From Candidatus Micrarchaeota archaeon (GTDB taxonomy: Archaea > B1Sed10-29), in contig CAZOFO010000005.1 in NCBI GenBank assembly GCA_964579265.1, positions 2,390 through 42,114 on the forward strand: DNA of 39,725 nucleotides, written 5' to 3'. A program made the translations under genes and the position numbers. Shown in pieces: positions 1-39,725 of this stretch. The notes beneath the pieces were generated by a model that did no database searches, had not been told where the DNA came from, and was given only the letters and a program-made list of their open reading frames with translations. Within the stretch, counting starts at the first letter, position 1. Each line of letters begins with the position of its first letter.

Positions 1-4
1 CAAA

Positions 5-325
5 ATGAGGATAGATGCAGTCACAAATAGACACCATGACGCCAGATGGATAATAAACAAATCAGTAGAAGAGGCACTAGAAGAAGAATATGAAAATTGC
101 ACAAAAGCTGCAGAAATGGTGGAAGAGAATTTAGAAAGCGCTTTACAAAATAACAACATGAACGAAGGACCTGTAAATTTCTATACAGATGAAGATGATA
201 TAAGGACTCTGCACGAAGAGTACTGCCCAGATAAGTTCATCCTTGAAGTAGAATATACCGTAGAATCAGAAGATGAAAGCGTAAGAAAAAAAGAATATTT
301 CTTAAGGAACTACACACATCCTTAG
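5..325 (+). CDS. Hypothetical acidic protein; may extend upstream of the window (5' partial)
   Basis: ORF is open in frame from the window start and shows coding-like periodicity. No recognisable motif. Confidence 0.35.
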   Translation: MRIDAVTNRHHDARWIINKSVEEALEEEYENCTKAAEMVEENLESALQNNNMNEGPVNFYTDEDDIRTLHEEYCPDKFILEVEYTVESEDESVRKKEYFLRNYTHP

Positions 326-417
326 GAAGAAAAAATAAAAACTTTTAACTTTTTCTAACTCAATTAATTAGAAATAAAGACATAAAGAAAAATTACTATT
401 TTTTATACAGAAATACT

Positions 418-750
418 ATGAATAAATCACTCTACTTTTCCCTAACAATAGCTCTCACAGGTCTAATTATACTTCACTTTCTACCTGCCTCCAATTATGA
501 AGAGAAAACTTTAAAAGAACTTGATCAAGGATGTGAAGGAAAAATAGAAACAGAGGGAAAAATTATAAACACTTTTAGATCTGAAAAAGGAAACAGAATA
601 GGAATAATAATAGAAGGAGAATATAAAGCTCTTACAATGCTTCCAGAAGATAAAAAAATCGAAGAAAACCATGTAAAAATAAGAGGAGAAGCTTCTAAGT
701 ACAGAGAACAGTGCTTTATATTTCCAGATAGGATTAAAACAAAAAAATAA
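418..750 (+). CDS. Small protein with an N-terminal signal or TM anchor and a β-rich, OB-fold-like C-terminal part; hypothetical
   Basis: Hydrophobic N-terminus LYFSLTIALTGLIILHF followed by a mixed-charge globular region. AT-rich upstream spacer. Confidence 0.4.
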   Translation: MNKSLYFSLTIALTGLIILHFLPASNYEEKTLKELDQGCEGKIETEGKIINTFRSEKGNRIGIIIEGEYKALTMLPEDKKIEENHVKIRGEASKYREQCFIFPDRIKTKK

Positions 751-33600: not shown

Positions 33601-33894
33601 ATGAGAAATATATCACAAGGAGCACTTGAATATATGATAATAATAGCAGCAGTTCTATCCATTGCAGCAATGGTCACAGTATTCCTAACCGGAGCATTAG
33701 AAGGAAGAAGAGAAGAAGCACTAGTAAGCGAATGTAGATCAGCAGCAGCACAGTGTAAACAAGATCAATTGATTTCTCCAGAGACAGAATGCCCACAGTG
33801 CGAAGTATGCGGAGAATTAGCAGAAATAGACGGATACGAAGATGCAGAAGAACACTGCAGAGCAGGAGAACCTGAAAGAATAGGAACAGGGTAA
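33601..33894 (+). CDS. Class-III-signal (pilin-like) Cys-rich protein, paralog A
   Basis: SQGA|LEYMIIIAAVLSIAAMVTVFL, then ECRSAAAQC…C-x2-C-x2-C…C (six Cys). Shares its 5' region with 37300 and 37717 at the nucleotide level. Confidence 0.55.
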   Translation: MRNISQGALEYMIIIAAVLSIAAMVTVFLTGALEGRREEALVSECRSAAAQCKQDQLISPETECPQCEVCGELAEIDGYEDAEEHCRAGEPERIGTG

Positions 33895-35056: not shown

Positions 35057-35512
35057 GTGGAAACAGAAAAGATAAAAATAGACGGAGACGAAGCAACCGA
35101 AAAAATAATTAAAATCCACAAAAAACCTAGATACACAGAACAAATCAACCTAATCCTACTCCAAGGCACTACAATAGCAGGTCTCAACATAATAGACATC
35201 CATAAAATACAAAAAGAAACTGAAAAACCAGTAATAACCACCTTGAAACAAAAACCAAGCAAGAAAAGGATAAAAAAAGCCATAAAAAACACTGAAAACT
35301 CTGAGAAAAAACTGGAAAAAATAGAGAAAAACCCGGAATACCAAAAACACCCTGGAAAAAATCTACACTACACCTCAACAGGCATGAAAAATGAAAAAGC
35401 AGAAATAGTAATAGAAAGATTAATACATAGAGGAAATATCCCGGAACCACTCAGAATAGCTAGCGTAATAGCAAAAGGAATAACAAAGAAACAACTAGAG
35501 GATCAAAAATGA
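35057..35512 (+). CDS. DUF99/UPF0215 protein (EndoV-like fold; member of the archaeal exosome superoperon). Coordinates are from the first ATG; homology appears to continue upstream.
   Basis: C-terminal NIPEPLRIASVIAKG is the DUF99 hallmark. The open frame upstream encodes …LAVNDGSFKRE, matching the N-terminal GxDDGxF motif, but there is no canonical start codon there. Confidence 0.65.
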   Translation: METEKIKIDGDEATEKIIKIHKKPRYTEQINLILLQGTTIAGLNIIDIHKIQKETEKPVITTLKQKPSKKRIKKAIKNTENSEKKLEKIEKNPEYQKHPGKNLHYTSTGMKNEKAEIVIERLIHRGNIPEPLRIASVIAKGITKKQLEDQK

Positions 35513-36363
35513 AGAAAAAACTCAAAAAACTAAAAGAAAAAACAAAAAACTCCCTGAGCAAACTGAAGAAAAAGATAAAAGGAAAAGAAAAAAAAGAAAA
35601 ACTAACCCGAAAACAACGAATAATAAAAGAAATAAGAGACTGGGGAATATCAATAGCAGCAGCACTACTAATATACTACGTTATACTACCAGCCATACTA
35701 GGAACAAGCACACCAATGGTAATAGTATCCAGCTGCAGTCAAGAACCACACCTAAATATAGGAGATGTTCTAATACTACAAGGAACCTCAATGGAAGAAA
35801 TAGAAGCGCCAACAGTAAAAATAGAAGAAGAACTTAACTACACCTACAACAACGAAACCAATAGAATCGTCATAAACGGACAAGAAATAGAAACAGACAC
35901 GGAAAACGACATAGTAACCTACATACCAGAACCACCCGGCACACAAGTGATACATAGGTCCCTTGCAAAAATAGAGTTCTCAGAAAACGCCTCTCCTGAA
36001 TTCCTCGCGGGAGAAAAAATACTCCTAACCCAAGGAGACGCAAACCCCATACCCGACCAAGTTACCAGAGAGGAGATAAACGCAGGGAAAAGAGCAATGT
36101 GTATCTCACTAGAACAAGAAGGAATGATAGTAAACCTACCGCATGACATGGATCTAGAAGGACAAGAAGACTTGAAGATAATCCCACACGGTATTGAAAC
36201 ATGTCTCTCAACACCTGTAACAGAAGAAAGAATAGTTGGAAGAAAAACAGGTCCAAGAATACCTCTACTAGGACACGTAAAACTATTCTTCTGTGATGTA
36301 ATGCCATTCTGCGATGGACATGCAAATCCAGGGACCGAATACGAATACAAATTAAGCTGCTGA
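35509..36363 (+). CDS. Signal peptidase I, archaeal Sec11/S26B-like, with a C-terminal extension
   Basis: TM anchor, box-B-like SSCSQEP, box C GDVLIL, box D IHRSL, box E QGDANPIPD. Its ATGA start overlaps the DUF99 stop. Confidence 0.55.
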   Translation: MKKKLKKLKEKTKNSLSKLKKKIKGKEKKEKLTRKQRIIKEIRDWGISIAAALLIYYVILPAILGTSTPMVIVSSCSQEPHLNIGDVLILQGTSMEEIEAPTVKIEEELNYTYNNETNRIVINGQEIETDTENDIVTYIPEPPGTQVIHRSLAKIEFSENASPEFLAGEKILLTQGDANPIPDQVTREEINAGKRAMCISLEQEGMIVNLPHDMDLEGQEDLKIIPHGIETCLSTPVTEERIVGRKTGPRIPLLGHVKLFFCDVMPFCDGHANPGTEYEYKLSC

Positions 36364-37299: not shown

Positions 37300-37635
37300 A
37301 TGAACCGTAAAAAAACAAAATCAGAACAAAAATCTCAAGGGGCAATGGAGTACATGATAATAATAGCAGCAGTACTGATAATAGCAGCGGTGACCACAAT
37401 GCTCATAACCAGAACCACAGGAAGACAAAGAGAGGAAGTACAGATAGAGGAGTGTAGATCAGCAGCAGCACAATGTTCTACAGAACACGCACGTTACGAA
37501 GACCCAGCATGTGAATTCTGCGTGAATGCATGCGAACCAGTGGAAGAAAACGACTTAATGGAAAATGCAGTAGACTGCTGCAAAGCAGGAATGGAAGAAA
37601 AGATATACATGGACTCAGAAGAGGATTGCTCATAG
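37300..37635 (+). CDS. Class-III-signal (pilin-like) Cys-rich protein, paralog B
   Basis: SQGA|MEYMIIIAAVLIIAAVTTML, then ECRSAAAQC…C-x2-C-x3-C…CC…C (eight Cys). Confidence 0.55.
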   Translation: MNRKKTKSEQKSQGAMEYMIIIAAVLIIAAVTTMLITRTTGRQREEVQIEECRSAAAQCSTEHARYEDPACEFCVNACEPVEENDLMENAVDCCKAGMEEKIYMDSEEDCS

Positions 37636-37716: not shown

Positions 37717-38793
37717 ATGGATGGAAAAATGATTTTTCATAAGAAATCAAGAAGACAACGTTCCCAAGGAGCAATGGAGTACCTAATAATAATAGCAGCA
37801 GTACTAATTGTAGCAGCAGTAACAACGATGCTGGTTACAGGTACGGTTGGAGAACAAAGAGAAGACGTATTAATAGAACAATGTAGATCAGCAGCAACAC
37901 AATGTGAATTACAAAGAAGAGGAGATCCTGACGCTGACTGCGATTTCTGCGAAGAACAATGCGTGGATCAAGAAGGAGAAGAAATATTCGAAGGAGCAAT
38001 AGACTGCTGTAAACTAGGAATGGACGAAGAAATATACATAGGGTCGGATGGCTGCGGAGACTTAATAGAGGTCACTGCAGATTTTTCACACGATCCGCTA
38101 AATCCCACAGCAGGATCAGAAGTAGAATTCACAGATCAATCAACAGTAAACCATCCTGATTACGATATAGTCGACTGGGAATGGGATTTTGGAGACGGAG
38201 GGACCTCAAGCCAACAAAACCCAACTCACACTTATGATTCAGAAGGAACATACACAGTAGAACTGCAAGTATGGGATGAGGAAGGAAACACTGATACAAC
38301 TCAAGAAACTTTGGAAGTATCTGAATACGTTTACCTAGAGACTGACTACGAAGGAGAAGGAGAAATAGATGTAGATCCACCAGATATCGAAGGAAGATAT
38401 GAGGCAGGAACGGAAATAACACTCACCGCCGAACCATACGAACTTGAAGATTACTACCTCTACGAATGGAAAGATGCAGAAGGAAGCACAACAGAATGCA
38501 TAGGAGAAGACGAAACATGCACCTTCACCATAGAAGAAAATTCAGAAATAACAGCAGTATTCATAGATGAATACGCCGTCAACTTCACCGAAGAAAAAAC
38601 ATACATAGAGGTAGATATAGAGGAAAAAGAAACAATATCCTTCTGGGCTAGAAATGAAGATGAAGAATGGACACATTACGCAGTATCAGGCGGAACCCAA
38701 TATGTAAACGGAGAACAACAGCAGTTTGACAATACTTACTACCTAGAAGAAGAAGGAAAACTCAAAATAGGGATATATCGTTTCGATGATTAA
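37717..38793 (+). CDS. Class-III-signal Cys-rich protein, paralog C, fused to a PKD domain and a divergent-InlB-B-repeat-like β module
   Basis: SQGA|MEYLIIIAAVLIVAAVTTML with the same eight-Cys spacing. PKD motif WDFGDGGTS…NPTHTY…GTYTVELQVWD at about 38065-38320. It is followed by a GEGEIDVDP…YEAGTEITLTAEP…Y.YEW…TCTFTIEENSEITAVF unit. Confidence 0.65.
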   Translation: MDGKMIFHKKSRRQRSQGAMEYLIIIAAVLIVAAVTTMLVTGTVGEQREDVLIEQCRSAATQCELQRRGDPDADCDFCEEQCVDQEGEEIFEGAIDCCKLGMDEEIYIGSDGCGDLIEVTADFSHDPLNPTAGSEVEFTDQSTVNHPDYDIVDWEWDFGDGGTSSQQNPTHTYDSEGTYTVELQVWDEEGNTDTTQETLEVSEYVYLETDYEGEGEIDVDPPDIEGRYEAGTEITLTAEPYELEDYYLYEWKDAEGSTTECIGEDETCTFTIEENSEITAVFIDEYAVNFTEEKTYIEVDIEEKETISFWARNEDEEWTHYAVSGGTQYVNGEQQQFDNTYYLEEEGKLKIGIYRFDD

Positions 38794-38821
38794 TAATAAA
38801 AATATTTAAGGTGAACAAAAA

Positions 38822-39725
38822 ATGGATAAAAAAATAGGAATAATACTGATCGGGATCATAGCGATAATAGGCACTTTCGTAGCAGTTCAACTCATAAGAG
38901 AAGAACCAGAACCAGAACCGGAACCTGAAATCCCTGAGATAGAAGCAAATGAATTAACGATAAATATAGAAGGACAGGGTGAAACAGACCCGATAGAAGG
39001 CACACACGCATACGAAGTAGGAGAGGAAGTTACAATCACAGCAGAGTCGGACGAAGGTTGGTACTTCAATAAATGGACAGGATACATAGAAGAAACAGAA
39101 GAAGAAATTACAGTTACGATGGATGAGGATAAAGAAGTGACAGCACACTTCGCAGATGAAGAGATAACATACTATGACTTAACGATCAATGTAGAGGGTG
39201 AAGGAGAAACAGATCCAGAGGAAGGCACCCATACATACGAGGAAGATGAAGAAGTCACAGTAACAACTACACCTGAAGAAGATTGGTATTTCAATGAGTG
39301 GATAGGCGACTGCACCGGAACAACCTGTACACTAATCATGGATGAAGATAAAGAGATAACAGCATACTTCCAAGAAGACGCACCTGATTTAGATCTAAGT
39401 ATAAATGTAGAAGGAGATGGAGAAGTAGAAATAGATCCGGACAAGGATGAATTCGAAGAAGGAGATCAAGTAACACTAACAGCAATACCATCAGAGTATT
39501 TAGGAGAAAAATGGCTATTCGAAGAATGGACAGGAGATTATACAGGCACGGAAGAAGAAATCACAATAACGATGGAAAAACATACTCAGATAACAGCTCA
39601 TTTCATAGAAGAAGATGAAGAAGAAGATGAAGAAGATGAAGAAGAAGACGATGATGAAGAACCTGAGATAGGATACACCATCACAACAAACATCGAAGGA
39701 GAAGGAGAAGTGGAAACGGATCCAG
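38822..39725 (+). CDS. Large acidic surface protein built from divergent-InlB-B-repeat-like modules; 3' partial (runs off the window)
   Basis: Not in the ORF track because no stop falls within the window. GGTGA lies 8 nt upstream. N-terminal anchor MDKKIGIILIGIIAIIGTFVAV, an (EP)4 linker, and at least four repeats of about 66-70 aa (LTINxEGxGETDP…GTH.YE…V.VT….W.F..W.G…T.TMDEDKE.TA.F). Confidence 0.6.
   Translation, partial: MDKKIGIILIGIIAIIGTFVAVQLIREEPEPEPEPEIPEIEANELTINIEGQGETDPIEGTHAYEVGEEVTITAESDEGWYFNKWTGYIEETEEEITVTMDEDKEVTAHFADEEITYYDLTINVEGEGETDPEEGTHTYEEDEEVTVTTTPEEDWYFNEWIGDCTGTTCTLIMDEDKEITAYFQEDAPDLDLSINVEGDGEVEIDPDKDEFEEGDQVTLTAIPSEYLGEKWLFEEWTGDYTGTEEEITITMEKHTQITAHFIEEDEEEDEEDEEEDDDEEPEIGYTITTNIEGEGEVETDP
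38954..39725 (+). repeat. Tandem protein-coding repeats (at about 38954-39151, 39179-39370 and 39395-39604, with a fourth starting at 39674), plus an acidic (E/D)n spacer at about 39605-39670
   Basis: Hand alignment of the translated repeats; the nucleotide sequences diverge while the protein pattern is conserved. Confidence 0.55.

What the first reader, a model, noticed from the sequence alone, without database searches (positions are those of the whole stretch)
37717..39725. Pilin-like N-terminus fused to PKD and InlB-B-repeat-like modules, followed by a large acidic repeat protein that continues beyond the window
Paralog C carries a textbook PKD signature (WDFGDGGTS…NPTHTY…GTYTVELQVWD) and a module with the pattern seen in divergent InlB B-repeats (GEGE…DP…Y..G..VTLTA.P…Y.F..W……T.T…D..ITA.F). 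The next gene, 28 nt downstream with a GGTGA RBS, is a membrane-anchored protein with an (EP)4 hinge, at least four such repeats and a poly-acidic spacer; it is truncated by the window end. Two repeat units each contain a conserved Cys pair (CIGEDETC and CTGTTC). Together the two genes look like an adhesin or tip-protein pair that could decorate a type-IV-like filament or mediate cell-cell contact.
Basis: partly seen in the sequence, partly recalled or inferred. Interest (0 to 1): 0.65.

Follow-up and report, generated by a model that had tools for sequence, protein, structure and literature searches.

The report
Adhesin-carrying pilin of a tiny archaeon
A small symbiotic-type (DPANN) archaeon encodes a pilus subunit fused to sticky surface domains, followed by two more surface-protein genes. 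It belongs to a large, unnamed family of such "modular pilins", which are plausible but unproven tools for attaching to other cells.

Summary
Gene C (37717-38793, 358 aa) has an archaeal class III (prepilin) signal peptide, a Cys-rich pilin module, a PKD domain and one divergent InlB B-repeat (Flg_new_2), all above Pfam thresholds.

The next gene, D, starts at 38822, not 38823. A near-identical contig shows it is only 435 aa: a membrane anchor, an (EP)4 stalk and five B-repeats. So it is not large. A secreted DUF2341 protein (E) abuts it, and the primase gene PriL follows.

The same contig carries a complete Epd-like type IV pilus machine about 30 kb upstream of gene C, just before the window starts. 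It has an ATPase, two platform genes, an A24 prepilin peptidase and a pilin with the same N-terminus.

The N-terminal module defines an unnamed family:
- 340 clusters at 50% identity.
- The module is always N-terminal, with Q+1, E+5 and six invariant Cys.
- The predicted head is all-helical, with no match among solved structures.
- About four fifths of members carry variable adhesion-type C-terminal modules.
- Members sit in one housekeeping block around PCNA in five DPANN genomes.
- They diverge faster than their neighbours.

Best reading: C is a modular type IV pilin that displays adhesin domains. D and E are co-expressed surface proteins rather than pilins. This is a new variant of a known kind, of moderate interest.

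The parts
37717..38793 (+). Gene C: modular type IV pilin precursor, 358 aa
   Evidence: ORF; Pfam Class_IIIsignal, PKD_4 and Flg_new_2; AF2 model, pLDDT 77.5.
37717..37767 (+). Predicted class III leader peptide (residues 1-17, MDGKMIFHKKSRRQRS). Cleavage is inferred before Q18.
   Evidence: PF04021 match. Q, G, E and Y of QGxxEY are invariant in 61 family members. The cleavage site is inferred from the Pfam family's QxSxExxxL motif and has not been shown.
37768..38055 (+). Pilin module (residues 18-113): hydrophobic alpha-1 helix plus a small Cys-rich, all-helical head with 8 Cys
   Evidence: Profile search: 340 clusters, module always N-terminal. Six Cys invariant in 132-134 of 134 sequences, and the extra pair C97/C113 co-occurs. 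AF2 helices 17-69, 76-86, 94-99, 103-107 and 110-114. No match in the PDB.
38071..38322 (+). PKD domain (residues 119-202)
   Evidence: PF18911 E 6.3e-19. pLDDT above 90. Foldseek match to ColG PKD, TM 0.88.
38329..38565 (+). Divergent InlB B-repeat (Flg_new_2) module (residues 205-283), with Cys pair CIGEDETC
   Evidence: PF18998, 25.9 bits against a cut-off of 23.6. 33-45% identical to the repeats of D.
38566..38790 (+). C-terminal ~75-residue beta-rich region with no family assignment
   Evidence: No Pfam or NCBIfam hit. AF2 confidence is low (pLDDT 45-75).
38810..38814 (+). GGTGA Shine-Dalgarno-like site, 7 nt before the ATG of D
   Evidence: Read directly from the sequence.
38822..39725 (+). 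Gene D, first 301 of 435 aa. It has a membrane anchor (residues 5-25), (EP)4 (residues 28-35), B-repeats D1 (43-110), D2 (111-183) and D3 (184-261), an acidic spacer (262-282), and the start of D4. It would end at window-equivalent position 40129.
   Evidence: Translation. Full protein P0123 and contig L081. Flg_new_2 E 6.6e-59. Repeat alignment.
37300..37635 (+). Gene B: stand-alone Cys-rich pilin (111 aa), first gene of the B-C-D-E block
   Evidence: PF04021, 27.2 bits. 55% identical to the module of C. AF2 pLDDT 86.7, helix 15-65 plus helical head.
33601..33894 (+). Gene A: stand-alone pilin of the 6-Cys subtype (97 aa)
   Evidence: PF04021, 23.3 bits, just under the cut-off. Family profile E 1.7e-30.
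1..750 (+). 3' end of the Epd-like type IV pilus gene cluster, whose core lies just upstream of the window
   Evidence: L090, where window position = L090 position minus 9248.

Best explanation
Gene C encodes a modular type IV pilin of a DPANN archaeon. The steps below are marked as shown or inferred.

1. Processing (inferred). The protein is made with a class III signal peptide. An A24 prepilin peptidase encoded about 32 kb upstream on the same contig (about 4 kb before the window starts) cleaves it before Q18.
2. Membrane pool (inferred). The mature protein is held in the membrane by its hydrophobic alpha-1 helix. That helix is nearly identical to those of the short paralogues A and B, and also the 132-aa pilin inside the machinery operon.
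3. Assembly (inferred). An Epd-like machine (one ATPase, two platform proteins) polymerises it into a filament made mainly of short pilins.
4. Head structure (inferred). The pilin head is a small all-helical knot, held together by three or four disulfides.
5. Display (inferred). A linker of about 5 residues follows the head. After it, the PKD domain, one B-repeat and a small beta domain project from the filament. They most likely sit at the tip or at sparse positions, and bind a surface or a partner (host) cell.

Genes D and E lie 28 nt and 0 nt downstream and are probably co-transcribed. Neither is a pilin. D is a surface protein anchored by an N-terminal membrane helix, with an (EP)4 stalk and five B-repeats. 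E is a Sec-secreted DUF2341 protein of the kind proposed as a pilus-associated adhesin.

What is shown: the domains, the motif conservation, the size of the family, the machinery on the same contig, the synteny and the fast divergence.

What is inferred: cleavage, assembly into a filament, position in the filament, disulfide bonding, the ligand and co-transcription.
For: Signal and module:
- Class III signal peptide above the Pfam cut-off in B and C.
- Q, G, E and Y of QGxxEY are invariant in 61 sequences.
- AF2 predicts a 51-residue N-terminal helix in B (pLDDT 86.7) and helix 17-69 in C.

Machinery on the same contig, ending at window position 750:
- T2SSE ATPase, E 1.7e-49.
- Two T2SSF platform genes, E ~2e-20 each.
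- Peptidase_A24 (E 1.7e-16) with Arc_PepC (E 4e-8), aligned end to end with the EppA model.
- A 132-aa pilin with the same QGALEYLIIIAAVL N-terminus (family profile E 2.3e-19), plus several more class III proteins.

Family:
- 340 clusters at E<=1e-3 and 245 at E<=1e-10. The module is always N-terminal and lengths run from 80 to 1163 aa.
- Among 115 long members: Class_IIIsignal in 96, PKD in 21, Laminin_G_3, CARDB, FG-GAP and Big_7 in 7 each, Flg_new_2 in 5.

Locus:
- Same housekeeping block in five genomes.
- Against L082, neighbours are 57-88% identical while the pilins are 34-54% identical and differ in architecture.
- A DsbA-like gene lies beside PCNA in two relatives.
- The extra Cys pair co-occurs: 78 sequences have both, 34 have neither.

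Gene E: DUF2341, E 1.3e-13. DUF2341 proteins in Methanococcus-type pilus loci were proposed as tip adhesins (PMC4858521).

Charge: C, D and E are strongly acidic with 3-9% K+R, whereas cytoplasmic proteins in the window are not. That fits extracellular exposure.

Precedent: bacterial modular pilins (PMC8179133).
Against: - No experiment exists. Cleavage, polymerisation and binding are all inferred.
- The predicted head is all-helical, unlike the beta-sheet heads of known bacterial and archaeal pilins. It matches nothing in the PDB.
- The B-C-D-E block lies about 30 kb from the machinery, not inside it.
- The linker between head and PKD is short, so steric fit in a filament body is doubtful.
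- Some relatives are hard to fit into a filament. P0124 also has a C-terminal membrane helix, and others exceed 1000 aa.
- Which pilin is the major subunit is unknown.
- The Flg_new_2 call in C is only 2 bits above the cut-off.
- The ligands of PKD and B-repeat domains are generally unknown.
Confidence: 0.68

Rival explanations
1. C is not a filament subunit. The class III signal peptide and alpha-1 helix serve only to export the protein and anchor it in the membrane, or to build a short bindosome-like pseudopilus. The adhesin domains would then sit at the cell surface.
For: Archaeal class III signal peptides are used by non-pilus surface proteins, such as the sugar-binding proteins of the Sulfolobus bindosome (my knowledge; the bindosome is mentioned). 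Some family members are very large, or also carry a C-terminal membrane helix (P0124; lengths up to 1163 aa). One relative fuses the module to an S8 protease. The head is tiny and atypical.
Against: The alpha-1 helices of A, B, C and the pilin in the machinery operon are nearly identical, which suggests co-assembly. Short stand-alone members of about 100 aa exist in the same genomes (28 of 149). The machinery on the contig is a full extension system.
Confidence: 0.17
2. C, D and E form one tip complex. After release from the membrane, D and E are carried at the pilus tip through contacts with the B-repeat of C.
For: The genes are tightly linked: gaps of 28 nt and 0 nt. C and D share the same repeat type, including the Cys-pair variant. 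DUF2341 proteins have been proposed as tip adhesins.
Against: D has a 21-residue hydrophobic anchor and no prepilin motif. No interaction has been tested. Flg_new_2 arrays are common in unrelated archaeal surface proteins.
Confidence: 0.08
3. The Cys-rich module is a metal- or cluster-binding domain (it contains CxxCxxxC) and has a redox or electron-transfer role rather than a structural one.
For: The spacing C-x2-C-x3-C and six invariant Cys.
Against: The module follows an export signal. The extra Cys come and go as a pair, as disulfide partners do. DsbA-like genes are adjacent in relatives. No Fe-S or zinc family was hit.
Confidence: 0.03

Closest known systems
Bacterial modular type IV pilins (Streptococcus sanguinis PilB and PilC; CofB and TcpB)
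   Same: An N-terminal pilin 'carrier' module joined by a short linker to adhesion-type 'effector' domains. Architectures are highly variable across the family. A tip location has been proposed (PMC8179133).
   Different: This one has the archaeal class III motif (Q+1, QGxxEY) rather than the bacterial IPR012902 N-methylation motif. Its head is predicted to be an all-helical disulfide knot, not an alpha/beta roll. The published survey covered bacteria only.
Epd pili of Methanococcus maripaludis (archaeal type-4-filament 'system 1')
   Same: One ATPase, a platform protein split into two genes, an A24 peptidase with the Arc_PepC domain, pilins with Q at +1, many small class III proteins, and DUF2341 proteins nearby.
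   Different: Scores against the EppA and FlaI equivalog models are far below their cut-offs (39 against 450, 326 against 550). The Cys-rich pilin module has no counterpart that I could find in that system. The adhesin-fused pilins lie about 25-30 kb from the machine.
PilY1-type and DUF2341 pilus-associated adhesins
   Same: Gene E carries DUF2341 and a Sec signal, and lies in a pilin operon.
   Different: No PilY1 beta-propeller or any other domain was detected in E.
Type IV pili of ultrasmall CPR bacteria (Saccharibacteria) used for episymbiosis
   Same: A reduced-genome, probably host-dependent organism with several pilin sets. Pili have been proposed or shown to mediate host contact (titles and abstracts listed).
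   Different: Different domain of life, and the pilins are unrelated. The only trace is a weak hit to the CPR PamR model (E 0.02).
Listeria InlB B-repeat and PKD-containing archaeal S-layer proteins
   Same: The same domain families (PF18998; PKD as in M. mazei 1l0q).
   Different: No LRR or GW modules, so this is not an internalin. Here the domains are carried on a pilin (C) or on an N-terminal membrane anchor (D).

Membership tests
Type IV pilin / archaeal class III signal peptide protein | Short charged leader, cleavage motif and a hydrophobic stretch of about 20 residues at the N-terminus (PF04021, QxSxExxxL) | tested here: met
   C scores 24.5 bits and B 27.2 bits against a cut-off of 23.7. 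A scores 23.3, just under it. QGxxEY is invariant in 61 sequences.
Type IV pilin / archaeal class III signal peptide protein | Acidic residue at +5 of the mature protein | tested here: met
   If cleavage is before Q18, E22 of C is at +5. This Glu is invariant in the family.
Type IV pilin / archaeal class III signal peptide protein | Long N-terminal alpha-1 helix of about 50 residues | tested here: met
   AF2 predicts helix 15-65 in B (pLDDT 86.7) and helix 17-69 in C, with a break at 41-42. This is a prediction only.
Type IV pilin / archaeal class III signal peptide protein | Globular head built on a beta-sheet (alpha/beta roll or Ig-like sandwich) | tested here: not met
Type IV pilin / archaeal class III signal peptide protein | Cognate prepilin peptidase, ATPase and platform protein in the same genome | tested here: met
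   All are present on the same contig, ending at window position 750.
Type IV pilin / archaeal class III signal peptide protein | Leader is actually cleaved and the subunit is found in a filament | not testable with these tools
   Needs biochemistry or cryo-EM on an uncultured organism.
Modular pilin, as defined by Raynaud et al. 2021 | N-terminal pilin module plus at least one extra domain not specific to pilus biology | tested here: met
   C has the pilin module, then PKD, then Flg_new_2. 115 long family members carry varied domains.
Modular pilin, as defined by Raynaud et al. 2021 | Pilin module recognised by IPR012902 (the bacterial prepilin N-terminal motif) | not tested
   InterPro was not available. 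The motif here is the archaeal PF04021 type, so the published census would not have captured this family.
PKD domain (PF18911 / PF00801) | Profile match above the gathering score, and the beta-sandwich fold | tested here: met
   68.3 and 56.5 bits. TM 0.88 to 2y72.
Divergent InlB B-repeat (PF18998, Flg_new_2) | Profile match above the gathering score | tested here: met
   D scores 196 bits over 5 stretches. C scores 25.9 against a cut-off of 23.6, which is marginal. The repeats are 33-59% identical to one another.
Internalin (InlB-like) | N-terminal LRR domain and inter-repeat region before the B-repeat | tested here: not met
   No LRR hit in C or D.
Epd pilus system (M. maripaludis EppA / EpdJKL equivalogs) | NCBIfam equivalog scores above the cut-offs for EppA and the ATPase | tested here: not met
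   EppA model: 39 bits against 450, although aligned over 9-331 of 334 positions. FlaI model: 326 bits against 550. The architecture is the same, but these are not equivalogs.
PilY1 adhesin | C-terminal PilY1 beta-propeller | tested here: not met
   E shows only DUF2341 at residues 60-136.
Sulfolobus bindosome substrate-binding proteins | Class III signal peptide fused to a solute-binding-protein domain | tested here: not met
   No SBP domain was found in C, or among the 25 most frequent Pfam families listed (of 60 found) for 115 family members.

The most novel reading that the evidence does not exclude
The Cys-rich, all-helical pilin module may define a previously undescribed pilin class, known so far only from Micrarchaeota-like DPANN archaea. 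On this reading, a fixed chromosomal hot spot around PCNA acts as a diversification site where adhesion modules are swapped onto a constant carrier. The resulting modular pilins would then decide which host cell each symbiont lineage can attach to.
Probability: 0.25. Interest if true: 0.75.

Novelty: new variant of a known kind. Interest (0 to 1): 0.45.

Why it matters
How DPANN archaea recognise and hold on to their hosts is largely unknown. Published genome papers only suggest that variable pilins might be involved.

This locus offers concrete candidates for testing that idea:
- A constant pilin carrier with exchangeable adhesion domains.
- Its assembly machine on the same contig.
- A conserved genomic address where such genes can be found in other DPANN genomes.

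It also extends the 'modular pilin' strategy, so far surveyed in bacteria, to archaea. And it points to a pilin head fold with no solved relative.

The organism is uncultured and nothing has been tested, so for now the value is in generating hypotheses.

Tried and rejected
- Exact look-ups of C (358 aa) and of the public 339-aa version found no contig.
It mostly returned unrelated PKD proteins, and only L001 (Micrarchaeota) matched the pilin module.
- The C-terminal 75 residues of C have no Pfam or NCBIfam hit, no homologue among the fetched proteins, and a low-confidence model.
- A profile search against PDB sequences gave only chance hits, to onconase, at E of about 0.1.
- The afdb50 library was not installed.
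- A PDB sequence search with E found nothing.
- I first guessed six repeats in D. The alignment shows five.
- I asked whether the acidity simply reflects a halophile proteome and rejected that. Cytoplasmic proteins in the window are often basic.
- I considered the signal-peptidase-like neighbour (35509-36363) as a dedicated pilin protease and rejected that. It is of the S26/Sec11 type, not A24, and the true A24 peptidase lies upstream.
- Promoter and terminator scans were not run, because the tool does not model archaeal promoters.
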